Shown here one piece after another: positions 7,384 to 56,321 of a stretch of 64,000 nucleotides of DNA. Source of the DNA: a virus; IMG/VR virus record IMGVR_UViG_3300034107_000314, positions 64,001 to 128,000 of that record; one strand, written 5' to 3'. A program made the translations under genes and the position numbers. How positions within the stretch are numbered: the first letter of the stretch is position 1; every line of letters begins with the position of its first letter. The notes under the pieces were generated by a model, which was not told the DNA's origin, made no database searches, and saw only the letters and a list, made by a program, of their open reading frames with translations.

Positions 7384-8315
7384 GCAAAAATCTCCTTTAC
7401 TCTTGTCCAGTCCATCTTTCGTTTAAACCCGTTGAAGTTGCTGTAAGCGAATGTCGCTCCAGCACCAATCATACCTTCGGCAACTTTTTGCCTAGTCCAA
7501 AAACTACCATCTGGTTGTTCATAGACTTTAGGACCAGAATTCCATAGTCCCCAGCTATTTCCAACTAGGAACAACATTTCATTAAATCTTTCATAGGTAT
7601 CATCACATGCAAGTATTGTCATTGCGTGCGCCCAGCTACCTTGAGGTTCTGCAATTCCATTTTTATCCCTTTGCGAAGAGAATCCATAGTTAGAACATAC
7701 AGATAAAGCATATCCATTAGCTAGCAGATCTCTGGCTTGCTCAACGCTGTTCACTGCTGTTACTGTGGTTATCTTGTGCTTAGAGCATTCCTTCACTACA
7801 GCTTCAGGGATTCCTCGTCCACCCCAGTTCATTCCTATTTTAGCATTGTATGTTGATAAGTCAATACCTAAATCGTCATATTTTTGCCTAAGTAAGAAAC
7901 CTCCTGTTGTACTTACGAATCTTGCCGCTTGTGAACAATGCATTCCTTGGCCGCTAGAACCCCTAGAACCATAGATTGGTTCAGTAGCTCCTCTAGCAAT
8001 GAAAGACTCTTTCTCTTTGCCATACAGGATTTCGTAAGCCCTAGTGATGTCTACAGCATTGCGTGTAGCATGACTTACGCAATCGCCAGTAGTTTGACTT
8101 TCATCTCCTCCAAAAGAAGGAAAGAAATATTGAATTGCTTTATAAGGCAAGGAAAGAACTCCTTTACCTGTTCCATATAATTCATCACCAATATCTCCAA
8201 ATAATGGATGTGGTAATTCTTGCATGAGTTTTGCCATGTCAACTGGATCACACACTGCGCCTTGTAATCCATTATTATACTGATCTAAAAGTTCTTCTGG
8301 ACTATTAAATTCCAT
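7380..8315 (-). CDS. Papain-like (C1 family) cysteine peptidase
   Basis: QTTGDCVSHA (oxyanion Gln, catalytic Cys), WAHAMTI (His), VGNSWG (Asn). Confidence 0.85.
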   Translation of the reverse strand: MEFNSPEELLDQYNNGLQGAVCDPVDMAKLMQELPHPLFGDIGDELYGTGKGVLSLPYKAIQYFFPSFGGDESQTTGDCVSHATRNAVDITRAYEILYGKEKESFIARGATEPIYGSRGSSGQGMHCSQAARFVSTTGGFLLRQKYDDLGIDLSTYNAKIGMNWGGRGIPEAVVKECSKHKITTVTAVNSVEQARDLLANGYALSVCSNYGFSSQRDKNGIAEPQGSWAHAMTILACDDTYERFNEMLFLVGNSWGLWNSGPKVYEQPDGSFWTRQKVAEGMIGAGATFAYSNFNGFKRKMDWTRVKEIFA

Positions 8316-29149: not shown

Positions 29150-29755
29150 ATGAAACAATGTAAGAAGTGTTTAGACACAAAAGATTTATCGGATTTTACA
29201 AAAAATAAGAATTCAAAAGACGGTTTATGCTGTTATTGTAGAATATGTAAATCTCAAGTAGATCGTGATTACTATAAAAATAATAGCAAAGAGATCAACA
29301 AGAGAAGGTTGTCGTATCATAAAACCAGTCCGATTCCTAAAGAATGTCGTAAACGATATGCAAAAAGTGAGAAGGGCAAAATGGCCCAACGTAAATATGT
29401 TAAAAAACGCTATCAGTCAAATCTTGAATTTAAGATTCGGACAACGCTTAGAAGTCGATTAAAACATGCAATAGACGGAAATATTAAAAAATTATCCGCT
29501 ATTAAATTACTTGGATGCACTGTAGAATATTTTATATCGTACATTGAATCCAAGCTATTGCCTGATATGACTTGGGAAAATTATGGAAATCCCAATGGAA
29601 ATCATAGTGATTGTTGGCATATTGATCACATAATACCATGTGCTAGATTTAATCTAGTAGATCTAGAACAACAAAAATTATGTTTTCATTATACTAATTT
29701 ACAACCACTATGGGCAAAAGATAATTTATCTAAAGCTGATAAAATTATCAGTTAG
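29150..29755 (+). CDS. HNH/EndoVII-like homing endonuclease, paralog of 26710-27249
   Basis: CKKC...KDGLCCYCRIC; MTWENYG...WHIDHIIPCARF...NLQPLWAKDN. Confidence 0.85.
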   Translation: MKQCKKCLDTKDLSDFTKNKNSKDGLCCYCRICKSQVDRDYYKNNSKEINKRRLSYHKTSPIPKECRKRYAKSEKGKMAQRKYVKKRYQSNLEFKIRTTLRSRLKHAIDGNIKKLSAIKLLGCTVEYFISYIESKLLPDMTWENYGNPNGNHSDCWHIDHIIPCARFNLVDLEQQKLCFHYTNLQPLWAKDNLSKADKIIS

Positions 29756-30411
29756 AAAATAGTTTGTTCAATTCTTCAATTTCTAGATCAATTTTGACGA
29801 TAGCTTGCAAAAGTGCTTCTCGTCTATTTTTCAATCTTTCAAGATTAACACTTGCTTCATATAGTTTTTTGTATTTGGCAGTCAAATCAGATTGAGCTGA
29901 CTGTTCAGTTTCAGGTTTTTCTTCCATCCTACTTTTGAAGATCTCATCAATAGTATTTTGAAGATCTTTAAAATCGACTGTCCAAGTTGGCATCTTTATT
30001 CTCCATTTGAAACACGGTTAAGTTGTCCACGTCTTTATTATACTTGACAGAACCCTGATTGTCAAGCAAGTCCGTAGAAAAATTTCCAATTTCCACTCCA
30101 GCGTTCGTCACGGTCACTGTTCCCGTAAGAAAACGACCATCTTCTTTTCCACCAACAACTGTTTGTGATACGAATGATTCTGTAAGTTTAGCTGTTTGAT
30201 TCATTTTTAATCTCCTCAAGTCTTTTAATGATAGCATTCCACTGGGTAGGCATCAGGCAACCGGATAGCTGATGCAACAAAAATTTAATCTGTTCTTCCT
30301 GAACTTTCAACTTCAATTCTAAATCTCGCATGTTGCTTTCCATAAATGTGAAATTTGGGTCAATTGATTCTAGATCTTCAGACACTTTACTGTCCTTTCG
30401 TTAGTGGTTAG

Positions 30412-30486
30412 TGGAGCGTGAGGGAATCGCACCCTCGCCCTTCCGTTTTCTCCAGAAGCTGTTAAGCTAAACTACAGTAACGCCCC
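30412..30486 (-). ncRNA. Non-canonical tRNA-like RNA: Ala-type acceptor stem, atypical anticodon loop (GAA at positions 34-36)
   Basis: GGGGCGT TA CTGT-AGTTTAGCTTA-ACAG C TTCTG-GAGAAAA-CGGAA GGGC GAGGG-TGCGATT-CCCTC ACGCTCC A; G3:U70 and A73. Confidence 0.7.
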
Positions 30487-30585
30487 GTTTAAAAAGTTGG
30501 ATGGGGAGATCTTGGCTCCATAGGAATTGCAGTCCTCTGATATACAATCTATCATACATACCACCCATTATTGTACATCCAACTA

Positions 30586-31853: not shown

Positions 31854-32194
31854 TTATATGTCTCCACTGTTATTATTTTTCTTAATTCGTTTACATATTT
31901 AGATTCTGGATTTACTCCGATAATCTTAGCAAATACACTTCCTTTGTTGAATATATATACTGATGGCATTGCAGAAACGCCATACACAGTTGCTAAATTA
32001 GCACATAGATCTGTATTGATTTTAGCTACTACAAGTTCTTTTCCGAAGTCTTTTGCGATTTTATCCATTAACGGGGATATCATCTTGCAAGGTCCGCACC
32101 AAGGTGCGTAAAAATCTACCAAGACTGGCTTATCGCTATTTAATACTATTGACTCCCAATCACTCTCATTGATTTCTATTGGATTTTCTGGCAT
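31850..32194 (-). CDS. trxA: Thioredoxin
   Basis: VLVDFYAPWCGPCKM. Confidence 0.95.
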   Translation of the reverse strand: MPENPIEINESDWESIVLNSDKPVLVDFYAPWCGPCKMISPLMDKIAKDFGKELVVAKINTDLCANLATVYGVSAMPSVYIFNKGSVFAKIIGVNPESKYVNELRKIITVETYK

Positions 32195-32245
32195 TCTATT
32201 CTCCGCTTGGCCTTTGTTGATTTGATAATTTTATTATAACATGGT

Positions 32246-33709
32246 TTAAACGGTAGTCAACTCTTTTTTTATTTTTTTTGCCGCAATCTTTTCTTCTCTA
32301 ATTCTAATAGATTGTTCAATTTTTTCTACTTTAGATATTAACTTTTCTACATTCTTGGCTGTTACCCTTGAATAAGTTAAACCGTATTCATATAATTCTT
32401 CGCCAACTTTTCTAATATTATTGGCAGCGTTAACATGTGAATCTTCTGAGTGCTTACATCGCAAGCAATGAAATTTATCAGCGTTTCTATTCTTTTTATC
32501 TATGTATTGGCATTTTGAACAAGTCATAGAGGTGTATGGAGAAGGAGAGACATAAAAAGGAATTCTCATATCTTCGCAGAGGAGTTGTACGTATTCGGAT
32601 ATGTATTGGCCGAACTCTCCTCCTGTTGCTCCAGTGTTAATTTTATCAATTGCTATTCCCATCTTTTCTGACTGGGCTTTATTGATAATCTGTAGTGCGA
32701 AAGGTCTAGTTGATTTTTGTATAGCTATGAGTACTTTATCTTTTTCTAATCTCTTTTTCTTTCTTTGTTTTGTATTGATGTCTTTGATGTCGTCTTCCTG
32801 TTTGGACTTAGACTTTGCTTTTGCTTTTGCTTTCTCTATATCCTTTTTTCTTTTTTTCTTTTTATTAACTTCTTTTGTAAGGATGTTGTTTTTTCTGATC
32901 AAGGCGCTCATTTCATCTGGTCTTGCAATTTTTTCGCCATCATCAAAAGTAATCCAGTCCATTGGCGTTTGATTAATATCAAATCCAATAAAACCAATAG
33001 GCTCATATTTTGTATCTACTAATATTGGTACAGCTGCTTTCATTACGGTAGTTCTAACTGTTTTATCTTTATTATAATTAAAGACGAAGTTACCTCCGAA
33101 ATTCTCTCCAACCATTCCTTTTCCAATATATTTATAGATATCAACTTCTATCTTTCCTATAGACGTAGGGAAAGTTAGTTTTTTTGTATCGTCATCATAA
33201 TTTAAACCTTCTGATATATGTAATTTCTTGCCTTTAAAATTAATAATTGGAAGTCTAGGGTCTGGATCTTTATCATCATTATTTCTATTGATTGAAGATT
33301 CAATTCTATCTAGCGCGTGCTTCACTATGCTTCTTTTATAATTAGAAATTCCATCTTCAACAAAATCGTACTTCTTAAAAATATCTGCGAATACTGTTTT
33401 TACTAATTTTGAAGTTGTAATAGTTGGCAATACGGCAAGTACATCGCCATTCCTGTCTCTTTTTTCTTTTAGTACAATATCATCTTTTAATGAGTTGTAT
33501 AGCTCTTTACCATCAATTAAAATAAAATCGCAAAAAGACCCAAAGAATCTTTTATTTATTTGTCCGGCTTTCATCAATTGTAATGTTCTGTTGCAAATTT
33601 CTTGGCAACATTTCTTAGCTTTAATTCTTTCTGATTCAAGCATTTCTAAGACATTTTTATCTTTATTTTTTAAAATAATAGTTACGCCACGCCTTTTGTA
33701 GATTTGCAT
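32246..33709 (-). CDS. TnpB/Cas12f-like RuvC plus zinc-ribbon protein with an atypical catalytic triad
   Basis: IGFDIN (RuvC-I), IAIDKIN (RuvC-II position), PYTSMTCSKC...FHCLRC..SEDSHVNAANNI (Zn ribbon and RuvC-III). Confidence 0.8.
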   Translation of the reverse strand: MQIYKRRGVTIILKNKDKNVLEMLESERIKAKKCCQEICNRTLQLMKAGQINKRFFGSFCDFILIDGKELYNSLKDDIVLKEKRDRNGDVLAVLPTITTSKLVKTVFADIFKKYDFVEDGISNYKRSIVKHALDRIESSINRNNDDKDPDPRLPIINFKGKKLHISEGLNYDDDTKKLTFPTSIGKIEVDIYKYIGKGMVGENFGGNFVFNYNKDKTVRTTVMKAAVPILVDTKYEPIGFIGFDINQTPMDWITFDDGEKIARPDEMSALIRKNNILTKEVNKKKKRKKDIEKAKAKAKSKSKQEDDIKDINTKQRKKKRLEKDKVLIAIQKSTRPFALQIINKAQSEKMGIAIDKINTGATGGEFGQYISEYVQLLCEDMRIPFYVSPSPYTSMTCSKCQYIDKKNRNADKFHCLRCKHSEDSHVNAANNIRKVGEELYEYGLTYSRVTAKNVEKLISKVEKIEQSIRIREEKIAAKKIKKELTTV

Positions 33710-34681
33710 ATATTTCCCTTTGTATAAATTTAAAAATAAAAGGCTTCTGTTACAAAGCCTTTTATTAGATGATTGACGTAAAATAATATATCCTTAAGAT
33801 CATCACTTAGTTTTGTTATATTATTATTTTGGTGGTTCAATAGGTCCAGCGTATTGATAACTTGTTGAATTACCAAGGCTTATTATTGAATTAATTTCAT
33901 TGGATGAGTATTCCTTGATACTTAAATGTCCATTAGACTTTAGCCAATAATATCCCGGAATGGTTGGATAATCTTTCCATGTTAAATCGCTATATTTATT
34001 TATAAGTGATTTAGCAATATCTATAGGTATTTGAACTAATGCCAATCCTAAGTTTGGATTTTCAGATATTACTTTTATTATAGATGATGGATCAAATGTA
34101 TAGTTATCTGAATAGATTTTCGACATCTACATTCTCCAGTAATAGTTCGAATTCGAAATCGCTAATTTTGTATTTTTTCTGCATGAGCATTAATACATTT
34201 ACAAGTTGCATATTTTCTAGTGATTTTTGTCTTGCTATGCCCCAAGCCATAATGAAAGATTTATTATTTAACAGGTCTTTGTCCTGTGTATCGAATTCTA
34301 TAATCGCTTGAGATGTTTCAAAAATATTATCAAGATCCATTGTTTATCCCCCTACGACTTGCCATAAAAATTTATTTCTTGATTGATTATTTCTTCATTT
34401 GTTGACCATCCAGCTTTTTTAATATATGTATCTAACGCTTTTCTGGTTGCTGCATTTTCTTTCTTTAAATCTTCTATTTGTTGATTAAGTGATGCTATGT
34501 ACTTAAGACCGAATTTGCATTTATTTGGAGGGCAACAGTCTAGTTCACCACATGAACCGCATGTTGAACAATATATGTCGTGCATTTCTTTTAATAGCTC
34601 CACTGGAAAGATATATCCATTATAGACATATTCACTTATTTCAGATAGTACGATTTTTAATCTGTCTTGTTTCATTTTCAC

Positions 34682-38999: not shown

Positions 39000-39096
39000 T
39001 ACAGACATGAATCAGGTCGCTCAGCTAACGATTGTCCCGAATCCGGGACCACCGCTCACGTTTTAGTGACGGACTGCCCTCATTGCCATGTCTGTA
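39000..39096 (-). ncRNA. Unassigned ~97-nt structured RNA upstream of tRNA-Gly
   Basis: 10-bp terminal stem TACAGACATG/CATGTCTGTA; internal hairpin GTCCCG-GATT-CGGGAC; begins ~6 nt after TTGACA-17-TATAAT (39102-39130). Confidence 0.6.
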
Positions 39097-40307
39097 TTAT
39101 TATTATACCCGATCACGTTGGTTTTGTCAACTTCAATTCTTCTAAGAACTGGATTAATTTTTCTTCATCTTCAAAAAAGAGATCTTTGAAGTAATCCTCT
39201 ATGGGCATATTAACATCTGGACAATCTTCTCCATAAACGTAGCCGCCATCCTTGGGGGTGATATAGGCGTAGCATTCAGAATTCAAATTTTTAATCCAGT
39301 CATTAAAGTGGATATCATGCCATTTATTCCAGCTGTTATCTTTGAGATAGTTAGTTAGTTTGGAACTCAATATTACTATCCTTTATATCTAGGAATTCTA
39401 ATACTTCTTGAATAGATTTAAAATTCAATGTATTGTAATCATCTGTTGGCATACTAATATTAGAATAGTCATAGAAGTCATAGATCCATATTGGTCTATT
39501 ATCTATTGCTCTTGGAATTAGTATATGATATTGTTGACTTGACTCTTTCTTTTCAAATGATGGCCAATATTCTGAATATGGATATCCACTATATTGAGTC
39601 CAACCGTTATCTATAAGAGCTTTATAAGCCGGATTCATTCTTCACCCTTTGTTTAGCATGGTCTATCATTGCTTGTTTAAAATCTTCTCGCCACTCTTTA
39701 TTATTACTGTAGTCGAATTGCTTGATACATTCTTCAAGAGCGTATTCCATAGTCTTGGCTTGTTTAGTCATAAGATCTAAGAGATGTCTGTCATGATTAT
39801 TTGCCATTATCAATATCCATTTTTGCATCGTGAATCATATAGTCAATATCCATTTCGTAATAAGGTATATTTCTAAGAGAAAGATTGACATGACCTTCGT
39901 AATTATAAAAATCAACAGCTCTTTGTAATGCTAGCTTATAGATCTCAGCCCGTCGAAATTGTGCTTTCAAGGGGGAAAAACCATTAGTGTTATCAATAAT
40001 TTCAAATCCTGCAACACCTTCACCTTGTTTCATCCATTTCCAGCCATGAACAGCTTCTTTTTTATTATCAATATATCCGTACATATTAACCCTTTCTTCT
40101 AGTGAGTGTTTCAATTATTATACCAGCAATATCGTAAGAGTCAAGAGAATTCATGTGATTTTTAATAACCCATTCAGCATTCTCTTGAGTGCATTTATAA
40201 CCGCTCTGTTTCATGCACTTAAGAACGACCTCCATGTCGTATTTAATTGGCAGATCATCATATGACTGCGGCTTAAGAGTTTCATACTTGGCGAAAAAAT
40301 TTGGCAT

Positions 40308-47961: not shown

Positions 47962-47993
47962 AAGCCCAGAGGAATTAACCTCCGGGCTTTTTT
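47962..47993 (+). terminator. Rho-independent terminator, probably bidirectional
   Basis: AAGCCCAGAGG-AATTAA-CCTCCGGGCTT followed by a T run. Confidence 0.8.
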
Positions 47994-48061
47994 ATTATAC
48001 TTTTGGCATGAAAGTTACACTAGATTATTTAAAGTATAAAAGTAATATCTTAGCGTGCAAC

Positions 48062-48726
48062 TAAAAGTTAGCTGACTATGGCTATCCTGACGAATCTTAA
48101 TATATAAGATGTTACAAGTCTAGACCATAGTCATCTGCATCATCTGATTTTGCTAGGCACAATTCCCTCCATAGGGATTCTGCAAAGCTGACCAAATACT
48201 TAACACGGTCAGGGCTAGTGACTTCCCTAACACTATTTTTATATACTTCTACTGCTAATTCTGAACAGAAGAAATCTGCTAAGAAGCTCGCCTTGTCAAG
48301 TTCATCGTCCATATTGTATTCCTTAAAAGTTAGCTGACTGTGGCTCATCCTGCGAATCATAATAGATAAGGTGATACATTTAGTTTATGATATCCGAATA
48401 TAAATAGTTAGGTGAACTAAGCCTGTATCAAGGCGATTATTTCTAATCAAATCCTACTTGTCTTTATATCCATATTAATATTATACCAGAGGGTCTATGA
48501 ATTGTCAACTATAAAATTTAAATTACAATGGTCTTGGCATACACCCTGTGGTAGTTCCACCCGGACGTGGAGTATAAACAATTCCAATAGGTCTAGAAAC
48601 TGAAGTCTTAATAAGTTTAACTAATACATCAGGCTTTGGCGGTGGCGGTGGAACGTACATTTTGATTCTCCTAAAAGTTAGCTGACTGTCACTATTCCCA
48701 CGAATCTTATTATATAAGATGATACA
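48062..48726. repeat. Three copies of a ~55-bp repeat (48062-48116, 48324-48378, 48672-48726) interleaved with small ORFs
   Basis: TAAAAGTTAGCTGACTRT-N11-CGAATCwTAwTAkATAAGrTGwTACA. Confidence 0.9.
48523..48660 (-). CDS. 45-aa Pro-rich peptide (not in the ORF track)
   Basis: MYVPPPPPKPDVLVKLIKTSVSRPIGIVYTPRPGGTTTGCMPRPL; AGGAG RBS at the edge of the repeat. Confidence 0.55.
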   Translation of the reverse strand: MYVPPPPPKPDVLVKLIKTSVSRPIGIVYTPRPGGTTTGCMPRPL

Positions 48727-48786
48727 AAAAAATCCAAAAAAAAGGCCGGAGGGACAAAGCCCCCCAACCCCTCCAAACCCCCCAAG

Positions 48787-49962
48787 TCACCCAGCCGCTG
48801 CGAACACCTCATCTATCTGTTCTGACGTAATCGTCTTAGAGTACGCATTCAGCCTATCCCAATCATTCTCCGTATAGCTCGTAAGTTGTCCGCCCAACTC
48901 ATCGAACTTGACCCAAGTCTCATTGGAGAGATTTTGCCCAGCCCTTGTGATAGAATTGACAATTCCAAACAAGTTCCGATCATCTTTCTCAAATGTGGCA
49001 AACTGAGTTAAGACTTCTCTGCTCTCAGTTTTATCTAGTTTACTCCTAAGACATACAGCACCTAAGATTTGTTTCATCGAACCTTCAACCTTTAAAGTTT
49101 GCAGGCCGAGGAACTTTCTAACACCAATTGGAATTAGTGGTAGTTGCTTCTCAATATTATCGACGATACGCTTCTTAAGGTCAACTAGGTCAATCTTACC
49201 GATGTGACGACGATCAATCATCTCGCCCTCAGTTTTGCCCCAGATACAGCCGTTCATACAGATAGACCTGAACAGGCTAGGCTTTTGACTAATCCTACGC
49301 TTGCCGATCTCACAATTCCCAACCGAGAGCATTCCACCATAGTCTGAGTCATCGCTTTGACCATAGTCAATAATACTGTCAGGTAATAGGAGATTACCAT
49401 AGATAGTATCATCGTCGCCCCGCCAGTGAGAATACATGGAACCCGGCAGATGCTCGTTCATCGTTTCGAGATACCATCTATTATCAATCGGTGCATATCT
49501 ATCGCTGACAAATGCACGAAGTGTACCATCGCTATAAGCACGAAGTCGATATTTCTTATCCTTGTCCGCTCTTCGCATAGCATTTTTAGCAATACGAACA
49601 GCAACGTCCGAATCTTCCCAATCCGAATCATCTTGATTCAATAGCTCCCGAATGACTGTTGACGATGGCAGCTTGAGCCGCCCAGCGAATTGGCCCAATG
49701 CCCATTCTGTTGGTTTATATTGTTTACCTGCAACTTCGAAGGCAAACTTGCCGCCCTCACCTACCACTGGTTCGATATCTGACAATGGAACCAGCATGTC
49801 CTCACGTTCCTCAGCAGACCGTTGAACAGTTTCCATCACCTGATCGAACGATTGGCACTTTTTAGCCCAGATCTTTGACACATGGAATCCATCGGCAAAG
49901 CCTTGTTGAGCCTTGACGAATGCACCAGCAGACTTGTCACTCTTGATCTCTAGCGTACTCAT
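48787..49962 (-). CDS. DUF932-like phage/plasmid protein
   Basis: LRAFVSDRYAPIDN; GNCEIG...FRSICMNG; NLFGIVNSITRAG. Confidence 0.7.
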   Translation of the reverse strand: MSTLEIKSDKSAGAFVKAQQGFADGFHVSKIWAKKCQSFDQVMETVQRSAEEREDMLVPLSDIEPVVGEGGKFAFEVAGKQYKPTEWALGQFAGRLKLPSSTVIRELLNQDDSDWEDSDVAVRIAKNAMRRADKDKKYRLRAYSDGTLRAFVSDRYAPIDNRWYLETMNEHLPGSMYSHWRGDDDTIYGNLLLPDSIIDYGQSDDSDYGGMLSVGNCEIGKRRISQKPSLFRSICMNGCIWGKTEGEMIDRRHIGKIDLVDLKKRIVDNIEKQLPLIPIGVRKFLGLQTLKVEGSMKQILGAVCLRSKLDKTESREVLTQFATFEKDDRNLFGIVNSITRAGQNLSNETWVKFDELGGQLTSYTENDWDRLNAYSKTITSEQIDEVFAAAG

Positions 49963-52432
49963 ATCTTTTGTCCTGCAATACTTGGTTAGTTGTTGTCTTC
50001 CTTACTCTTATATTATACCACAGGATTTCACCTTGTCAAGAGTTAAGAATACATTTCTTTCAATTCATTTACTTCCATCTGAGTGTTTACTATGTTCAAG
50101 GCCACTAGCATAGCAAAGTAGATTTGCTGCGATAGTTCCTTGTCACCCTGACTTACTTGATTAGCAAGTGTATAAACCAAGGTAGATAAGACTCTATTCT
50201 CTTTATTGAGTTCAAGAGCCTTATCCTTAGCATACTTGAGCAGATCTCTCATAGCCTCTCTATGGACACTCTCTCCCACTTCTACGTCAATCTTTGGTAG
50301 CATCATTTATCACTCTCACTTCTACAACAGGATATCCGACCCAAGCATTATATGCCACAGGAACTTCACGCATGATCCTTTCTCTGAGTTCAGGAGTCAT
50401 GTAATATTCGACGACTTTTAGGATCTGCTCTTTTTGGTGATGCGTCATGCTCATTATTTGATCTCGTACTTATAGGTTTTTTCTTCGTAGACTAAAGGCT
50501 TTGCCGTACTTACACCCTCTACGATTGCAAGACGATAGCCAAGACGTTCGAGAGCCTCATAGTGAGCAGCATCGCTTGACTGTACGTCACAATAGCCACC
50601 TTCTTCAGCGTCACGAATGTTTGCATCGGCCTTGAACTCCGCTTCTAAATCTTGTGACTCGCCAGTTTTTTCGTTGGTTAGGACAAATTTCCAGCTACGC
50701 ATTGTTGATTCTCCAATGTCACTTTCATGTTATGTACTAGTAGTTTGCTACCACTCATTGTCACTGTAGATATTGTACCATCTGGAGTCTTGCATGTCAA
50801 GATCCAAAGTTGATTATGTCGAACGATTTCGTAGGTGTTCATGATTGTCCCCAATTCTCAATTTCGTATTGTGTTTCGCCAGCGTTTCGAGCGTAGATAG
50901 TTTTATCACTTGCGTAGGGATGGTCAAAGTTGAAAGGCTTATAGATCTCATACTTATATAGAGACCCATTCGTCTTTTTTACTACCAGCCCTTTGGACTT
51001 AGCTAGTTGTTCAAGAGCTTTGAGTGTTAATCTCATTTGTCAATATCCTCTGGTAAGGGAAATCCACCAATGACAGGACAGTTATCTCCATCCAATTCGC
51101 CTTGAGTTCGGATACCCATATTCTCTAGCTCAGCCTCAAACGCCTCTTGACTATCTAATAGACGATCAAGCAGTGTTATTTGATAGTATTCAATTAGACT
51201 TTCTATATCCATACTGTCAACCGACAACTGAGCCAGATTCTTACAATTACTGTATGTGTTCTCGATCATATCTTTCCCTTTCTTGTACTGCAATTATATC
51301 ATATGAGGGGCTGAATGTCAACCCCCCAAGCTATATATTTTTAGTCAATCTGGGCGAGCAGTTCGCCAGCACGCTTGGCCGCGATGATTTCGGCCAGCTT
51401 GGAGAGATCCTTCTTAGGCTTGCGAACTTCGTCGCTTCGTCGCATGGTCGGCAGTTCTACGCCAACTTCCTTAAGCTCTTTGCGGAGCTTGAGAGCCTTC
51501 TGGTAAGACGTTTCAAGGTCAAGGCCAAAATGGTCGGCAACGTCTTGGATCGTGCCACTGGTGACGTTTGTAGCGGCATCAAAGCCACGTTGGAAAACAT
51601 CCATATAAACAGACACAAAATCTTCAGCATTGATGAACTTGCGTGTTGTTTTAGCCATCGGTATAGATCTCTTTCTTTAGATAGAAGATAGTGGATTTGG
51701 CTTCAAACCAGTCGTGAGTGAGATCCACTTAACTCATCATACGTTTGACTGGCTATACTACTATTATACAGGATAGAACGCAGTTGTCAAGACTTACTTG
51801 GTGAAAATTACAGGATTCACCATTTTTACACATGAGAGGGAAGCAATGCGATTGAACCCCTTGTCAGTGTATTGCAGGACGACATATTGACCATTAGAGC
51901 TTACACCCTGACGAATGATCTTACCATCACGAACCTTGAGGATATTACGATTGCCGCCTACAGGGTAGGAAACAACCAACTTACGACCGTTGCGAACATT
52001 GATTGACTTGAGCATATCTTAGATCTCCTTAGAACTGACACTTGGTTACTGACCACACATATATTCTAACACAGGTGAGTTTACTTGTCAAGCATACGGC
52101 CAATAATCTGATTTTATTTCATGTTTCAGATCCTTGACCTCAGCTTCAAGTAGAACTACGTATTCCTCTAGCTTTTTATGTATTTCTTGATAGTAGCGGT
52201 CAGCTTGTGACCCTTCCCAATCATAACCATAATCCTTAACCTGATTAAGAATGCACTCGTCATATTTCTGTCTAGTAGAGGCAAGCTCATTTTTCACCTG
52301 TTCAATCTTACTCATCTTTTCACTCCACTTCGTTTCGTTCGTTTCTCACTTCCTTACTCCTATATTATACATCATAGAAAGCTGTTGTCAAGCCCTGTGG
52401 GGTGTTATTTTGGAGATTATTTTATATTGTTG

Positions 52433-52509
52433 TAAGTGCTTGTGGTGTAAGGACTTGCGGCGAGGCGCGCTAGCGGGGTCGCTGTAAATCCTTACGTAGT
52501 AAGTACTTA
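52433..52509. repeat. Bipartite palindromic element, copy A
   Basis: TAAGTGCTT-GTGGTGT-AAGGACTTG, 27-bp GC-rich spacer, TAAATCCTT-ACGTAGT-AAGTACTTA. Confidence 0.85.
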
Positions 52510-52553
52510 CGAAAAAACCCACCGCAACGAGCGATGGGCCACTTTAAAAGGAA

Positions 52554-52627
52554 TACCCCGATCAGGATTTGAACCTGAAACCTACAGCTTAGAAGGCTGT
52601 TGCTCTATCCAATTGAGCTATCGGGGC
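52554..52627 (-). tRNA. tRNA-Arg(TCT)
   Basis: ACAGC-CTTCTAA-GCTGT. Confidence 0.93.
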
Positions 52628-52698
52628 TTATATTGAGTATTTTGGTCATAAGATAATCTCAGGTAAGAATACTCAAACTTACTTTAGTGATTATCTAA

Positions 52699-52783
52699 TA
52701 CGGATGATGGGAATCGAACCCATATGAGGTTTAATCCTCGACAGATTTTAAGTCTGTTGCGTATACCATTTCGCCACATCCGC
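52699..52783 (-). tRNA. tRNA-Leu(TAA)
   Basis: ACAGA-CTTAAAA-TCTGT; long variable arm. Confidence 0.93.
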
Positions 52784-52788
52784 ATGAA

Positions 52789-52861
52789 TACCCCTACGGA
52801 GAATTGAACTCCGGTTTCAAGATTGAAAATCTTGCGTCCTAGGCCACTAGACGATAAGGGC
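52789..52861 (-). tRNA. tRNA-Glu(TTC)
   Basis: CAAGA-TTTTCAA-TCTTG. Confidence 0.92.
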
Positions 52862-52870
52862 ATTTACCAC

Positions 52871-52943
52871 TTGGCCTATCGGGGTACGATCCCGAAACCT
52901 GTCACTTATAAGGTGACTGCTCTACCAATTGAGCTATAGGCCA
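52871..52943 (-). tRNA. tRNA-Ile(TAT)
   Basis: GTCAC-CTTATAA-GTGAC; T-loop ATCGTAC; A73. Confidence 0.88.
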
Positions 52944-54956
52944 GTAGATGCCATTTTTGGACTGAAGTCAATCTCGTTTGGGAAATGGCAAACCCAACTT
53001 CATTGATCGACTATCTTATTATATCACTTCACTTTCAGTTTGTCAACTAGACGCCTGAGAAAACTCTTGTTAATCTTCTGGACATTTACGAGACGACCAT
53101 CGTAGAATGACTTGATTTTATTATCACTCAACTGAATGGTCAGCAAATACTGTGATCTCTCAAGATCCATGTTACGCAAGATTGTCTCGTATCGCAGTCT
53201 ATGTTCAAACATATCACGAACTTGGATTACAGTACCTTCATATTCCTTGATCTCATATAGGGTATGAGCAGGAAGATGAGTACGATCTAATTTCCGTTCG
53301 ATGTACTGGAACTTGACTTTGTTACCAGCGGTCAATTGTGCGATCATCTCTATCTTCTCCTGAAAGGTTTGAATCATCTTCATCTCACTACTCTATTATA
53401 CCATCTCGTATTCACTTGTCAAGCAACTTTTTCGAGAACTTTCCTCGAATCTGTATTCGCCAGCAAAGATTTCGTTCAACGTCTCTAGGCTAGCAATGAA
53501 GTCACGATAAGATGAGAACTCATCAATATCGGTTTTTTGGTTATCGTATACTTTGCCAGTTGACAGGTTTGTCATCTTGTAGAAATAGATCATTCGTCTT
53601 CTCCTATTTCAAAAACTTCCCAGTCGTCTACATCCTTAGTAGAAAAATACTCTACAGTATAAGGATACTGTTCTATCTTCTCATTTGCTATTTCTTTAGC
53701 ATGATCTCTATTCTCAGCTTCAACGTCGATATCAACGCCGTGAATTTCGTACACTCTGACGACATACTTCTTCATACATTACCCCGGATAGATAGAGATA
53801 TTGAAACCACTCAAGAACGCATCGGACAACAGCTCAAATCGACCACCACCGTGGCTTGGCATGAAGATATGAATATCTCCATTATCTGCGATGTTACCAG
53901 AGAACATCTTATCAAGAGTTGGCACATACAGCAAGCAGTTCGTTTCCATCACTCACTCCCTTTCTTACTACTCTATTGTATCACACGATCCTGTCTTGTC
54001 AAGCTCAAAATGCCTTAATCGTAAGATTTTGAATTGGCAAGAGAGAGATGTTTATCACTTTGGGCTGCTTTGGTTCTTCGACCCTTACCTCTACGCTTCC
54101 CACTTTGGGAGCTACCAGAGCAGGAAATGGGGCTTCCCGCTTCTGGAAGTGTTTGCATCCACTGCATGACAGGATCAAAACCGCAATAATCGTCAATCGC
54201 ATAGGTCACTCCTTTGTTAGTTTCCCTATATATATTATCGACATTTTGCGGCTCCCTATCCAGCTTATTCTCCCAAAATTCAGCAGAAAATTCAAGAACA
54301 TCTCTCATCGGCTACACTCCCTATAAAAAATTAAACTTCTTCAGGCCAGTTAAACCACAGTTGAGGTTGATTCTTATCTATAAGATAGTCTTCATCATCA
54401 TTATCTAGCATGAGTGCATCATGATCTAGTATATATGTTGAATCGTTTTCTACATCGTACAATTGAATGTCAGTGTCCAAGAAACGCTCATCAATCTGAG
54501 CTTCTTTAAGTTCACGCCATGTCATGGTCGATATCCCTTTTATCAGTGGTTCGTTCCCACCGTTGTTTATGTTCTACTACATCATGCAAATATTTCTTGC
54601 CATCGCTGTTGAATGTCCATACATCCATCACTTCTTCCTGTTCAGGGATGATAAGATCGTCATCACCACTTGGGTCGTACCCCTTAAGAGCTTCGCGAGT
54701 TGCCCCCCGAAGTTTCTTGTTACATTGTTTCTTGCTACTCTTATCAGAGTCACCAGCGATTTTGAAGATTGGCGTTTTGCGATATGACTTACCCACTTTA
54801 TTCTCCACTTTCAGGACATGAGATGCTTAGCATAATTCCACACATGAATAGCGTAAATACCATCATAGATTATACCTTCATTAAAACCTCCAACAGAGCC
54901 GACAGATTGTTGTGTATCATGATACTATTATACCATACGGATACAGGAATGTCAAG

Positions 54957-55028
54957 AGCCGAGGGAGGGATTTGAACCCCCAACCTTTGCTTTACAAAAG
55001 CACTGCTCTACCGTTGAGCTACCCCGGC
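54957..55028 (-). tRNA. tRNA-Thr(TGT)
   Basis: TGCT-TTTGTAA-AGCA; acceptor GCCGGGG/CCTCGGC. Confidence 0.92.
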
Positions 55029-55031
55029 GAA

Positions 55032-55103
55032 TGGAACTACTGGGGGACGATCCCAGACTAACACATTAAAAGTGTGCGGTGCTGCCAGTTACACCATAGT
55101 TCC
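55032..55103 (-). tRNA. tRNA-Lys(TTT)
   Basis: GCACA-CTTTTAA-TGTGT; T-loop ATCGTCC. Confidence 0.88.
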
Positions 55104-55158
55104 AAGCTAGGACCACATAATGGTCCCGTTTCATATCGCACACATGGTACGACAGAAG

Positions 55159-55230
55159 CTGGTCAGGTAGGACTTGAACCTACAACCGTTCCGTTAACAG
55201 CGGAATGCTCTACCATTGAGCTACTGACCA
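55159..55230 (-). tRNA. tRNA-Asn(GTT)
   Basis: TTCCG-CTGTTAA-CGGAA; G73. Confidence 0.93.
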
Positions 55231-55235
55231 AAGTA

Positions 55236-55362
55236 CGTTTGAATGGGAGGAATCGAACCTCATCTCACCTCTTATTCCACCTAGATTATCTGACCACAGA
55301 ATGCAAAGATGGGAATTGAACCCATTCGATCTAGTCGGGACGCTTCCTGCGTTCATTCAAAC
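55236..55362 (-). ncRNA. tRNA-like RNA with two T-arms and no anticodon loop
   Basis: 9-bp terminal stem GTTTGAATG/CATTCAAAC; T-arms ATGGG-TTCAATT-CCCAT and GAGG-TTCGATT-CCTC; CTAGAT/ATCTAG stem; lies between tRNA-Tyr and tRNA-Asn. Confidence 0.72.
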
Positions 55363-55364
55363 AT

Positions 55365-55445
55365 TGCGTGCTAGTGGAATCGAACCACTTAAGGCGTAGC
55401 CACCTGATTTACAGTCAGGTCCGTTATCCAACTCGGTCAACACGC
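55365..55445 (-). tRNA. tRNA-Tyr(GTA)
   Basis: CCTGA-CTGTAAA-TCAGG; variable arm. Confidence 0.9.
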
Positions 55446-56215
55446 TTCGTATTACTATTATACACCAGATTCCAATTTTGTCAACCGATCTTTCAATTCT
55501 TTTATGATTTTCTCAAGTCCGGCGACTTGCCATTCGGCGATGTTCAGCCGTGACTCAATTGATGGTGGCTCTGGCTTATCAGCATAGTCGCAGAAGTTGA
55601 AAGTCTCAATTCGGCTATGCTCATAGTGAACAGGTTCGCCATGTACAGTCTGGATTCCATCGGGCGAGTAGAACTTCACTAAGATATGATTGTCTCCATC
55701 GTCCCAACCGTCAGCAGCTTCCAAGCATTCGATATAGTACCAATTCCTATAGTCGGGAAGCTGGGCTTTCATTCTAGCCAATTCAGTGGTACTGGGCCGG
55801 AATGTTGTGTGTTTCCAAGATACGCTCATTCTGATATCCTTTTCAATAGGTCAATAGCGGTTTGAAACTCTGGACGATCTTTGTTGTTGCTTCCTAAATT
55901 CCTTAGTAGCCACAACACGTTGTCTTCTCTCAGTTCTATTCTACCACGGGGAACATCCATTGTCAAGAGTAATTCCATAAGAGCTACCCTAGTTTTTAAA
56001 AAGAAGATCTCATCGTTGAGTGTGTCTATGAAATACGACATCAGAATTGCCCCTTGAAAACCATCTTGATTAGTTGACCAACACAGTAACCAGCAACCAG
56101 AGCTATGACTTCTAACATCTGCAACTCTCCTTTGAGAAGGGTGACTCGTTTCTTATATTACTATTATACATTATCGACATCCTGTTGTCAAGTGTTTAGA
56201 CCAAATTATTTTAAT

Positions 56216-56321
56216 AAGTTAGCTGACTGTAGCTTAACGTGGCGAGCCTTAATATATAGGATAATCCAAAGTTAGCTGACTGTAGCTTAACTTTGCGTAT
56301 CTGATTATATAGGATAATCCA
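56216..56321. repeat. Two tandem 53-bp copies of the AAGTTAGCTGACT repeat
   Basis: AAGTTAGCTGACTGTAGCTTAAC...TATATAGGATAATCCA twice, period 53 bp. Confidence 0.9.

What the first reader, a model, noticed from the sequence alone, without database searches (positions are those of the whole stretch)
32246..33709. Solo TnpB-like protein with a rewritten RuvC triad (D/D/H instead of D/E/D) and no transposon context
Seen: RuvC-I Asp is kept (GFDIN). The RuvC-II Glu position reads Asp (IAIDKIN). The RuvC-III Asp of the usual xDxNAAxNI motif is His (SHVNAANNI). The zinc ribbon is intact, with a Lys-rich insertion and a ~55-aa C-terminal extension. No TnpA, resolvase or CRISPR array is adjacent. Only ~51 bp separate the stop from thioredoxin, while the ~114-bp upstream gap holds a hairpin (AAAGGCTT...AAGCCTTT). 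Established: nuclease-dead TnpB derivatives (TldR) act as RNA-guided repressors. Inference: a domesticated phage TnpB with lost or altered chemistry, guided by an RNA that is upstream, internal or supplied in trans; the orphan RNAs and repeats in this window are candidates.
Basis: partly seen in the sequence, partly recalled or inferred. Interest (0 to 1): 0.7.

Follow-up and report, generated by a model that had tools for sequence, protein, structure and literature searches.

The report
Phage TnpB-like nuclease, altered active site
A lake phage related to T4 carries a well-conserved relative of the RNA-guided nucleases TnpB/Cas12f whose active site reads Asp-Asp-His instead of Asp-Glu-Asp; it belongs to a large virus-only group that usually sits among phage tRNA genes beside a previously undescribed small pseudoknot RNA, so it may be a new kind of phage RNA-protein nuclease system rather than a dead transposon relic.

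Summary
Window 32246-33709 (-) is an intact 487-aa TnpB/Cas12f-like gene (Pfam PF07282; AlphaFold pLDDT 93; Foldseek top hits Cas12f/TnpB). Profile alignment to a solved Cas12f confirms the register: RuvC-I D244, RuvC-II D355 (not Glu), RuvC-III H425 (not Asp); the C4 zinc ribbon is intact. D/D/H is invariant in 14 homologs (44-99% identity) and dN/dS is 0.04-0.08, so this is not decay.

The family lies in a virus-only clade (about 146 clusters at 50% identity). There RuvC-I Asp and RuvC-II Asp are invariant, while RuvC-III is only Asp, His or Gln and has switched at least 9-21 times. This points to a maintained variant active site rather than a TldR-like dead one.

The gene is a single-copy insulated cassette: terminator upstream, and a TTGACT-16-TATAAT promoter overlapping its stop codon. 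It lies beside a tRNA cluster, the genome has no TnpA, and one syntenic relative lacks the gene.

No classical omega-RNA fits downstream. However, a new ~68-nt pseudoknot RNA motif with strong covariation directly flanks the gene in most relatives. In this genome it occurs only in trans (52945-53013, 52630-52697). Whether it is the RNA partner is untested.

The scan's earlier notes had flagged this same gene but not the RNA motif.

The parts
32246..33709 (-). TnpB/Cas12f-like ORF, 487 aa (P0001); RuvC-I D244, RuvC-II D355, RuvC-III H425
   Evidence: PF07282 E 1.5e-9; PHROG 506/12300; AlphaFold pLDDT 93.3; Foldseek Cas12f/TnpB E 5e-13; invariant residues
32456..32521 (-). C4 zinc ribbon (C397, C400, C415, C418) of the TNB domain
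   Evidence: invariant in A1; at least 147 of 150 clade representatives keep each Cys
32744..32863 (-). Lys-rich low-complexity insertion (about residues 283-322), length-polymorphic
   Evidence: pLDDT 64-68; variable in A1; 2-aa deletion in P0002; in-frame 6-nt deletion at 32814 in a lake-metagenome contig
32233..32260 (-). sigma70-type promoter TTGACT-16-TATAAT with TG extension, overlapping the last codons and the stop codon; drives thioredoxin here and pseudoknot RNA plus tRNAs in relatives
   Evidence: 11 of 12 matches; the same TTGACA-N16/17-TATAAT sits over the stop codon in L008, L010, L015 and L018; raised third-position identity in the last window
   Evidence: a hairpin is kept at the same place with different sequence in L004, L006, L008 and L010
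33818..33872 (-). possible decayed copy of the pseudoknot motif upstream of the gene (outer stem only; GATGAT/ATCATC here, GATTAT/ATAATC in L004); uncertain
   Evidence: weak model hits at the same relative place in the window and in L004/L003 (12.8-13.2 bits, E 7-8); not found by model R2
52945..53013 (-). intact copy of the 68-nt pseudoknot RNA motif, starting about 4 nt after a TATAAT box and ending 1 nt before tRNA-Ile(tat); candidate trans RNA partner (unproven)
   Evidence: 62.7 bits with R1 and 73.9 bits with R2; flanks shown
52630..52697 (-). second copy of the pseudoknot motif, between tRNA-Leu(taa) and tRNA-Arg(tct)
   Evidence: 31.7 bits with R1 and 58.4 bits with R2

Best explanation
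The gene encodes a member of a large, virus-only branch of the TnpB/Cas12f superfamily carried by uncultured T4-like aquatic phages.

Its RuvC centre is a selectively maintained variant. Asp is in motif I, Asp replaces Glu in motif II, and motif III holds His (Gln or Asp in relatives). The protein is therefore most likely still a metal-dependent nuclease rather than a dead binder. This step is inferred, by analogy with the Asp-Asp-His centre of Argonaute PIWI and the His in the Cas9/RuvC motif (own knowledge).

The gene is not part of a transposon. It is a single-gene, insulated accessory cassette. A terminator lies in front, and a promoter built into its last codons restarts transcription of the downstream genes. 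It sits in the variable region beside a phage tRNA cluster. It is present in some syntenic relatives and absent in another.

This is the lifestyle of free-standing homing-endonuclease genes such as T4 segB. I infer that it cuts DNA of co-infecting relatives or of the host to favour its own genome.

It probably works with a small RNA. In most relatives a conserved ~68-nt pseudoknot RNA lies directly at one or both ends of the gene. In this phage the same RNA is encoded only elsewhere, in a second tRNA cluster. Binding of that RNA, any guide function, and catalysis are all untested.
For: - Family and fold.
- Register of D/D/H. It is invariant in 15 homologs. Purifying selection gives dN/dS 0.04-0.08.
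- Clade-wide pattern: D244 and D355 are the only invariant columns in 144 sequences. RuvC-III is H 70 / D 55 / Q 23 of 150, with no other residue but 2 Gly. There are at least 21 state changes on the tree, at least 9 of them forced by well-supported branches. Each zinc-ribbon Cys is kept in at least 147 of 150.
- Literature: conserved RuvC-III Asp-to-His branches, some virus-specific, were described and judged likely active (PMC10691335).
- Virus-only: no relative in 185,579 prokaryote genomes. There are 22 IMG/VR loci. Neighbours are T4-type genes: rIIA/rIIB, RNR, RNA ligase, Thy1, dUTPase.
- Cassette features: terminator and promoter. No TnpA. Single copy.
- Presence/absence: syntenic L027 lacks the gene. 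There tRNA-His and tRNA-Ser are contiguous, where L010 has pseudoknot-ORF-pseudoknot between them.
- RNA motif: 96.5% of cells paired and 17 of 20 pairs with double compensatory changes, including 5 of 8 pairs in the pseudoknot helix that the model did not contain. Slid controls give 34-46%.
- RNA association: 33 hits in 152 kb around clade genes, many ending about 30 nt before the start codon or overlapping the stop codon, all on the gene's strand. There are 0 hits in 251 kb around 80 generic viral TnpB loci. In an 89-kb viral record the only two hits flank the gene.
Against: - No catalysis has been shown. In canonical TnpB, mutating any triad residue abolishes cleavage (stated in bioRxiv 10.1101/2023.11.30.569447). 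Gln at RuvC-III in 23 relatives is hard to reconcile with classical two-metal chemistry.
- No guide-like free variable segment is evident. The variable parts of the pseudoknot motif are all internally paired, and it abuts tRNAs by 1-5 nt.
- The motif also occurs away from the gene and in a contig without it (L027), and it tracks tRNA clusters. Its link to the protein could therefore be indirect.
- In this window the gene has no intact copy next to it.
- The gene keeps roughly the same neighbourhood down to 44% identity under strong constraint. That suits a useful phage gene as well as, or better than, a purely selfish homing gene.
- Only one clean 'empty-site' relative was found. The metagenome joint that skips the gene is weak.
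Confidence: 0.45

Rival explanations
1. RNA-processing enzyme. The RuvC centre cuts RNA, not DNA. The protein recognises the pseudoknot elements that punctuate phage tRNA operons, including the elements flanking its own mRNA, and processes or stabilises these transcripts. This would be an extension of the RuvC-dependent self-processing of guide RNA known for TnpB.
For: - Across the clade the gene sits inside tRNA operons between pseudoknot elements that abut tRNAs by 1-5 nt.
- In three loci the 3' element overlaps the ORF end.
- TnpB processes its own guide through RuvC (cited in bioRxiv 10.1101/2023.11.30.569447).
- No free guide segment is seen.
- The Asp-Asp-His centre resembles RNA-cleaving Argonaute (own knowledge).
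Against: - tRNA ends are normally made by host RNase P and RNase Z, so no phage enzyme is needed.
- The full TnpB architecture for binding an RNA-DNA duplex is retained (WED, REC, zinc ribbon).
- Clade members such as P0200 lie in loci with no motif hit and no tRNA-typical gaps between genes.
Confidence: 0.2
2. Nuclease-dead RNA-guided DNA binder (TldR/Cas12k-like). The altered triad abolishes cleavage and the protein represses or marks a DNA target using an RNA supplied in trans.
For: - By strict identity only one of the three DED residues is kept, which meets the automated TldR criterion.
- His or Gln at RuvC-III lacks a carboxylate.
- Phage-encoded TldRs exist (PMC13418256, listed).
Against: - Two acidic residues are invariant in 144 sequences and RuvC-III is limited to D/H/Q. 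A dead site would be expected to drift.
- There is no C-terminal truncation and the zinc ribbon is intact.
- No guide gene lies downstream and no conserved partner gene is present. Thioredoxin is adjacent only in the closest relatives.
Confidence: 0.17
3. The pseudoknot elements are the structured ends of a mobile cassette, analogous to the same-strand hairpins at the left and right ends of IS200/IS605 and their gene-less derivatives. The gene is the cargo or maintenance nuclease of a still-mobile element that targets phage tRNA clusters. The copy in this window has lost its ends and is stranded.
For: - Element-ORF-element arrangement in direct orientation in L008, L010, L041, L052, L037 and L016/L017.
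- Solo elements occur elsewhere.
- Precise insertion between two tRNAs relative to L027.
- Only a possible relic of the element lies upstream of the window's gene.
Against: - No transposase is present in the genome.
- The stems differ in sequence between the two ends of one cassette, and the loop-tail pseudoknot with G-U pairs on one strand is typical of RNA.
- There is one copy per genome.
- The window's copy is under strong purifying selection despite lacking the ends.
Confidence: 0.12
4. Decaying remnant of a transposon TnpB with no function.
For: Solo gene, no TnpA, non-canonical triad.
Against: - dN/dS is 0.04-0.08, the ORF is intact in all 15 homologs, and the active-site residues are invariant.
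- The fold is predicted with high confidence.
Confidence: 0.02

Closest known systems
TnpB / Cas12f (IS200/IS605 OMEGA nucleases; solved examples 8exa, 8h1j, 9nzq, 8dzj)
   Same: Same fold and domain order: WED, REC, RuvC with an inserted C4 zinc ribbon. Pfam PF07282. The RuvC-III 'xNAAxNI' context is that of the 'derived' TnpB clade.
   Different: The triad is D-D-H, not D-E-D. There is no TnpA, no transposon ends and no 3' omega-RNA with a flanking guide in this window. The clade is virus-only and the gene is single copy.
Catalytically rearranged TnpB branches of Altae-Tran et al. 2023 (RIIIr-4, RIIr-4; PMC10691335)
   Same: Conserved RuvC-III Asp-to-His, enrichment in viruses, and the inference that the site is still active.
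   Different: [quoted passage not shown] The described RuvC-II rearrangements replace Glu by Gly with a relocated Glu, whereas here Glu is replaced in place by Asp. No supplement was available to check whether this clade is one of their named branches.
TldR (TnpB-like nuclease-dead repressors)
   Same: A TnpB derivative outside a transposon. Some TldRs are phage-encoded. Fewer than two exact DED residues are kept.
   Different: TldRs show progressive loss of the site and often lose the zinc-finger/RuvC C-terminus. They have a guide RNA gene directly downstream and a fixed partner or target gene. None of this is seen here.
Free-standing homing endonuclease genes of T4-like phages (for example segB in the T4 tRNA cluster, PMC2330249)
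   Same: A single-gene insertion in or next to the phage tRNA cluster, with its own regulatory signals, present or absent among relatives. Another HNH/EndoVII-like gene lies nearby at 29150-29755.
   Different: The protein family is different (RuvC/TnpB, not GIY-YIG or HNH). Cleavage of an empty site is not shown. Conservation is deeper than is usual for homing genes.
Cas12p ('Cas12 hacker'), a phage miniature Cas12 activated by host thioredoxin (bioRxiv 10.1101/2025.01.20.633832; 9jfs)
   Same: A phage-encoded miniature RuvC nuclease. Structural hit at E 1.9e-10. A basic flexible loop is present. Here a thioredoxin gene lies directly downstream.
   Different: There is no CRISPR array. Thioredoxin is adjacent only in the window and its 75%-identical relatives, not in L006, L008 or L010. 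Binding was not established.

Membership tests
TnpB/Cas12f superfamily | TNB/zinc-ribbon domain (PF07282) above Pfam's cut-off | tested here: met
   38.3 bits against a cut-off of 26.3, residues 377-432
TnpB/Cas12f superfamily | Bilobed WED-REC-RuvC fold | tested here: met
   Model pLDDT 93.3. Foldseek probability 1.00 to Cas12f, TnpB and Fanzor2, best E 4.9e-13.
TnpB/Cas12f superfamily | RuvC Asp-Glu-Asp catalytic triad | tested here: not met
   D244 / D355 / H425 in the canonical register
OMEGA (transposon-borne TnpB) | TnpA (Y1 or serine recombinase) or transposon ends in the locus or genome | tested here: not met
   No PF01797 match in the 155-kb genome. Neighbours are phage genes.
OMEGA (transposon-borne TnpB) | Omega-RNA overlapping the 3' end of the ORF with a guide in the flank | tested here: inconclusive
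   The window's 51-bp 3' gap is a promoter plus RBS. No conserved structure was found in the last 150 nt of the ORF. Relatives have a 68-nt pseudoknot at or over the stop codon, but without an obvious guide.
TldR | Fewer than two conserved DED residues | tested here: met
   Only RuvC-I Asp is identical. RuvC-II is a conservative Glu-to-Asp change.
TldR | [quoted passage not shown] | tested here: not met
   D244 and D355 are invariant in 144 sequences. RuvC-III is only D/H/Q. The zinc ribbon is intact.
TldR | Guide RNA downstream and a conserved target or partner gene | tested here: not met
   The downstream gene varies: thioredoxin, tRNAs or other ORFs
RIIIr-4 branch (PMC10691335) | RuvC-III Asp replaced by His | tested here: met
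   H425 is invariant in the family
RIIIr-4 branch (PMC10691335) | Absence of the C4 zinc finger | tested here: not met
   The four Cys are invariant
Homing-endonuclease-type free-standing gene | Presence/absence polymorphism at a syntenic intergenic site | tested here: met
   L027 lacks it and has tRNA-His and tRNA-Ser contiguous there. L010 has the cassette at that junction. A weak metagenome joint skips 31856-33943.
Homing-endonuclease-type free-standing gene | Cleaves the allele that lacks it | not testable with these tools
   Needs a biochemical or co-infection assay
Cas12p-like thioredoxin-dependent nuclease | Binds thioredoxin | not testable with these tools
   See Tried and rejected

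The most novel reading that the evidence does not exclude
The 68-nt pseudoknot RNA is the cognate RNA of this virus-only TnpB-like clade. That would define a new phage RNA-protein nuclease system with three features. Its RuvC centre is Asp-Asp-His/Gln. Its RNA scaffold is far smaller than any known omega-RNA. Its RNAs are embedded in tRNA operons and released by tRNA processing. The adjoining tRNA sequence, or the structured RNA itself, would then specify targets such as tRNA gene clusters of rival phages or of the host.
Probability: 0.15. Interest if true: 0.9.

Novelty: new variant of a known kind. Interest (0 to 1): 0.64.

Why it matters
TnpB is the ancestor of Cas12, and its exaptations (Cas12, TldR, Cas12k, sigma-associated forms) are an active field.

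This branch lives only in lytic-type phage genomes. It keeps a non-canonical but tightly constrained active site in which His, Gln and Asp interchange. It also travels with a new structured RNA and with tRNA genes.

If the protein is active, it shows that the RuvC triad tolerates Asp-Asp-His/Gln. It could also supply very compact nucleases with a very small RNA.

If the protein is inactive or cuts RNA, it is a new exaptation of TnpB in phage biology.

In either case the pseudoknot motif is a new RNA family with strong covariation and no Rfam match, and it deserves its own study.

Tried and rejected
- **Thioredoxin partner.** A complex-prediction job of the protein (alignment A1) with the adjacent phage thioredoxin (alignment A5) gave 'no answer' (score 0.00, controls not run). 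This is no evidence either way. Thioredoxin adjacency is confined to the window and its 75%-identical relatives.
- **Classical omega-RNA.** RNAalifold on the last 150 nt of the ORF plus the 3' flank of nine homologs found no consensus pairs. Raised synonymous conservation in the last codons is explained by the embedded promoter.
- **Rfam.** Only tRNAs reach the gathering score in the window. Nothing matches the pseudoknot element at permissive E-values.
- **RNA expression.** No RNA holder is listed among public runs. All 20 holders are DNA metagenomes, mostly lake water.
- **Cultured relatives.** There is no near-DNA match, and only one 50-residue protein match in 50,697 phage records for the protein. 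There is none for clade member P0174.
- **Canonical-Asp sub-clade context.** An attempt to fetch it from IMG/VR failed. The only usable search pattern was the generic RuvC-III motif, which returned generic TnpBs. These were reused as a negative control for the RNA model.
- **AAGTTAGCTGACT repeat family (48044-56321).** Considered as guide candidates. The layout (conserved box, fixed about 18-nt variable spacer, TAATATAT-like box) fits promoters. Not pursued further.
- **97-nt RNA before tRNA-Gly (about 39000-39096).** Read. It is not similar to the pseudoknot motif and no link to the gene was found.
- **Active-site geometry.** Distances could not be measured because model coordinates are not exposed.
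- **Named branches of PMC10691335.** No supplementary files are held, so the clade could not be matched to them.
Full report
**The object**

Window 32246..33709 on the minus strand is an uninterrupted 487-codon ORF. It hits the Cas12f1-like TNB domain (PF07282, E 1.5e-9, above the curated cut-off). It also hits two PHROG 'transposase' families and, weakly, NCBIfam's IS200 and IS607 TnpB models.

An AlphaFold2 model built on 144 relatives is confident (mean pLDDT 93.3, pTM 0.88). Only the Lys-rich stretch at about 283-322 is low (64-68). Foldseek places the model with Cas12f, TnpB and Fanzor2 (best E 4.9e-13, probability 1.00).

The window is bases 64001-128000 of a 155,259-bp IMG/VR virus record rated complete, and the gene is single copy there. 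Neighbouring genes include rIIA, ribonucleotide reductase, a T4-type RNA ligase and 15 tRNAs. This is therefore a T4-like phage. Near-identical DNA is held by 20 metagenome runs from 18 studies, mostly lake water.

**The active site**

A profile of the relatives aligns over its whole length to solved Cas12f 9nzq. RuvC-I 'GfDiN' aligns with 'GVDMG'. RuvC-II 'cIDsv' aligns with 'QMEDL', so the Asp sits on the catalytic Glu. RuvC-III 'ahlnAAkNI' aligns with 'ADFNASQNI', so the His sits on the catalytic Asp. Secondary-structure positions agree.

Fourteen full-length homologs at 44-99% identity keep D244, D355, H425 and all four zinc-ribbon Cys. dN/dS between close pairs is 0.04-0.08. dS is 0.98 for L006/L011 and 1.9 for L012/L017. 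It is saturated for the window versus L004, which makes that ratio an upper bound. Decay is excluded.

**The wider clade**

An exhaustive search of 1.84 billion cluster representatives gave 828 hits at E up to 1e-3 and 142 at E up to 1e-10. I examined the 150 listed hits that are at least 340 aa long.
- RuvC-I is Asp in all of them.
- RuvC-II is Asp in 147. The three exceptions are fringe sequences with a canonical or misaligned motif.
- RuvC-III is His in 70, Asp in 55, Gln in 23 and Gly in 2.

In the 144-sequence alignment, D244 and D355 are the only invariant columns.

On a FastTree of 146 sequences the RuvC-III state changes at least 21 times, and at least 9 changes are forced by well-supported branches. 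The window's family lies in a supported 18-sequence clade with 17 His and 1 Asp. Next to it lies a 33-sequence clade that has only His or Gln.

A position that drifts freely would not be limited to three residues that are one nucleotide apart (GAY, CAY, CAR). Two acidic residues that never change argue for retained metal binding. This is why I rank 'variant but working centre' above 'dead centre'.

The literature agrees in kind. Altae-Tran et al. describe conserved RuvC-III Asp-to-His branches, some specific to viruses, and infer retained activity (PMC10691335). Their largest such branch lacks the zinc finger, which this clade keeps. Their RuvC-II rearrangements are Glu-to-Gly with a relocated Glu, not Glu-to-Asp in place. 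I could not map this clade onto their named branches.

By contrast, TldRs are defined by deteriorating triads and frequent C-terminal loss, with a guide gene downstream and a fixed partner gene (bioRxiv 10.1101/2023.11.30.569447). Those features are not met here.

**Genomic setting**

The clade appears to be confined to viruses. Pattern scans of one genome for each of 185,579 prokaryote species found no relative of the family or of the neighbouring His/Gln clade. IMG/VR gave 22 loci for that clade. Long contigs carrying clade members have T4-type neighbours. No cultured phage in the held collection has a close relative.

The genome has no Y1 transposase. The gene is bracketed by regulatory signals.
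- A terminator-like hairpin with a T-run lies at 33766-33735. It is kept at the same place in relatives with different stem sequences.
- A TTGACT-16-TATAAT promoter with a TG extension lies at 32260-32233 and overlaps the last five codons and the stop codon.
- The same arrangement recurs in L008, L010, L015 and L018, with TTGACA in the Leu-Thr-Lys-Glu codons and TATAAT across Val-stop. This explains both the conserved C-terminal residues and the raised synonymous conservation at the very end of the ORF.

The 51-bp 'gap' before thioredoxin is therefore a promoter plus RBS. It is not room for a guide.

Synteny is kept across the family: glycosyltransferases, small ORFs, the gene, then tRNAs, a metallophosphatase and an HNH gene. 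The immediate neighbours differ, however. Thioredoxin follows only in the window and its 75% relatives.

In L008 and L010 the gene lies inside a tRNA cluster. The syntenic relative L027 has no such gene, and its tRNA-His and tRNA-Ser(tga) are contiguous. L010 has the cassette at exactly that junction.

Contigs from two lake metagenomes join 31855 to 33944, skipping thioredoxin and this gene. That joint is weak (short flank, 85% likeness threshold).

An HNH/EndoVII-like gene on the opposite strand at 29150-29755 shows that this region collects free-standing nuclease genes.

**The RNA question**

No conserved structure was found in the last 150 nt of the ORF. Directly after the stop codon, however, three of the four sub-groups of the family have a hairpin whose loop pairs with a downstream tail.

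A covariance model built from six copies found further copies, and a second model was built from 19 copies. On those 19 copies:
- 96.5% of cells are paired.
- 17 of 20 pairs show compensatory double changes.
- Shifting the partners by 1-3 columns drops pairing to 34-46%.
- The pseudoknot helix was not part of the model, yet it covaries in 5 of 8 pairs.

The conserved unpaired stretches are AAUAAAG, UUU(G), UCGA and CAAAA. Rfam has nothing like this motif.

Distribution of the motif:
- There are 33 hits in 152 kb around clade genes, all on the gene's strand. Many end about 30 nt before the start codon (L041, L049, L050, L052, L056) or begin at or over the stop codon (L036, L037, L041, L052, L053, L056).
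- Both ends of the gene carry a copy in L008 and L010.
- There are 0 hits in 251 kb around 80 generic viral TnpB loci.
- In an 89-kb viral record the only two hits flank the gene. In a complete 174-kb record one of the two hits lies 240 nt upstream of it.
- The window's own genome has four copies, none next to the gene. They are at window 52945-53013 and 52630-52697 in a second tRNA cluster, a weak one at about 47991-48063, and one outside the window.
- Upstream of the window's gene only a possible relic of the outer stem remains.

The motif also tracks tRNA genes, typically Ile(tat), Arg(tct) and Leu(taa), which it abuts by 1-5 nt. It also occurs in L027, which lacks the gene. It flanks the gene in some loci without tRNAs as well, namely L036, L016/L017 and L012.

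The association with the gene is therefore far above chance, but it is not exclusive. Its meaning could be a cognate RNA, a processing signal or the ends of a cassette, and that is open. I see no free variable segment that could serve as a guide.

**Mechanism, with shown and inferred steps**

Shown:
- Family, fold and register of the active site.
- Conservation and purifying selection.
- Virus-only distribution.
- Cassette signals, and absence from one syntenic relative.
- Existence, covariation and co-location of the RNA motif.

Inferred:
- The D-D-H centre still binds metal and cuts.
- The protein acts with the pseudoknot RNA.
- The biological role is competition with co-infecting phages or with the host, in the manner of homing endonucleases.

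I put about 0.45 on this package. The rivals are an RNA-processing role (0.2), a dead RNA-guided binder (0.17), a still-mobile cassette with structured ends (0.12) and decay (0.02).

**Verdict**

Altered RuvC triads in TnpB, including Asp-to-His in viral branches, have been published. The protein is therefore a new variant of a known kind. Within what I could search, three things are new: the size and virus-only nature of this Asp-Asp-(His/Gln/Asp) clade, its habitual place in phage tRNA clusters, and the pseudoknot RNA that travels with it.

Noticed in passing
window 52945-53013 (-), 52630-52697 (-), about 47991-48063 (-); also G000:37924-37986 (-); L008, L010, L015, L018, L006, L011, L016, L017, L020, L027, L035-L056: A new ~68-nt H-type pseudoknot RNA motif. 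Its layout is outer stem, AAUAAAG, inner stem, a loop starting UUU(G), UCGA, a linker, CAAAA, then a tail that pairs with the loop. Covariation is strong in all three helices and there is no Rfam match. It often starts a few nt after a TATAAT box, abuts tRNAs by 1-5 nt, and forms tandem runs (four copies upstream of the TnpB-like gene in L020).
   Followed up: partly
window 32233-32260 (-); same place in L008, L010, L015, L018: A near-consensus sigma70 promoter is encoded within the last codons and stop codon of the TnpB-like gene. This constrains its C-terminal residues (Leu-Thr-Lys-Glu ... Val-stop).
   Followed up: yes
window 29150-29755 (+): An opposite-strand 201-aa HNH/endonuclease VII-like gene (PHROG 1035, E 1.8e-19) next to the tRNA cluster. 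It is probably a free-standing homing endonuclease gene.
   Followed up: no
window 48044-48726 and 56216-56321 (+): The AAGTTAGCTGACT repeat family has a conserved box, a fixed-length variable spacer and a TAATATAT-like box. That is the layout of a promoter family rather than a guide array.
   Followed up: partly
window about 39000-39130 (-): A TTGACA-17-TATAAT promoter is followed by a ~95-nt RNA closed by a 9-10-bp terminal stem (ACAGACATG...CATGTCTGT). It ends a few nt before tRNA-Gly(tcc). It is not related to the pseudoknot motif.
   Followed up: no
window 30487-30585 (-): About 100 nt lie between tRNA-Ser(tga) and a low-scoring tRNA-like gene (30411-30486, 35 bits). The stretch has a long closing stem (GTTGGATG...CATCCAAC) and may be another stable RNA of the tRNA operon.
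   Followed up: no
L006:7570-7650 (also L011): Directly after the 3' pseudoknot lies a degenerate tRNA-Ser-like remnant with a recognisable T-arm and acceptor end. It overlaps the called start of the next ORF, whose real start is probably the internal Met (MRTVNNW...).
   Followed up: no
window 32814 (Lys-rich region of the ORF): The Lys-rich insertion is length-polymorphic and stays in frame. One lake-metagenome contig has a 6-nt deletion, and the 99%-identical homolog P0002 has a 2-aa deletion.
   Followed up: partly
L020:7545-7898: ARAGORN calls a tmRNA (tag AEPSLALAA) in a T4-like phage contig. The call overlaps a pseudoknot-motif hit at 7771-7833 and may be a false call or a phage tmRNA-like gene.
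   Followed up: no
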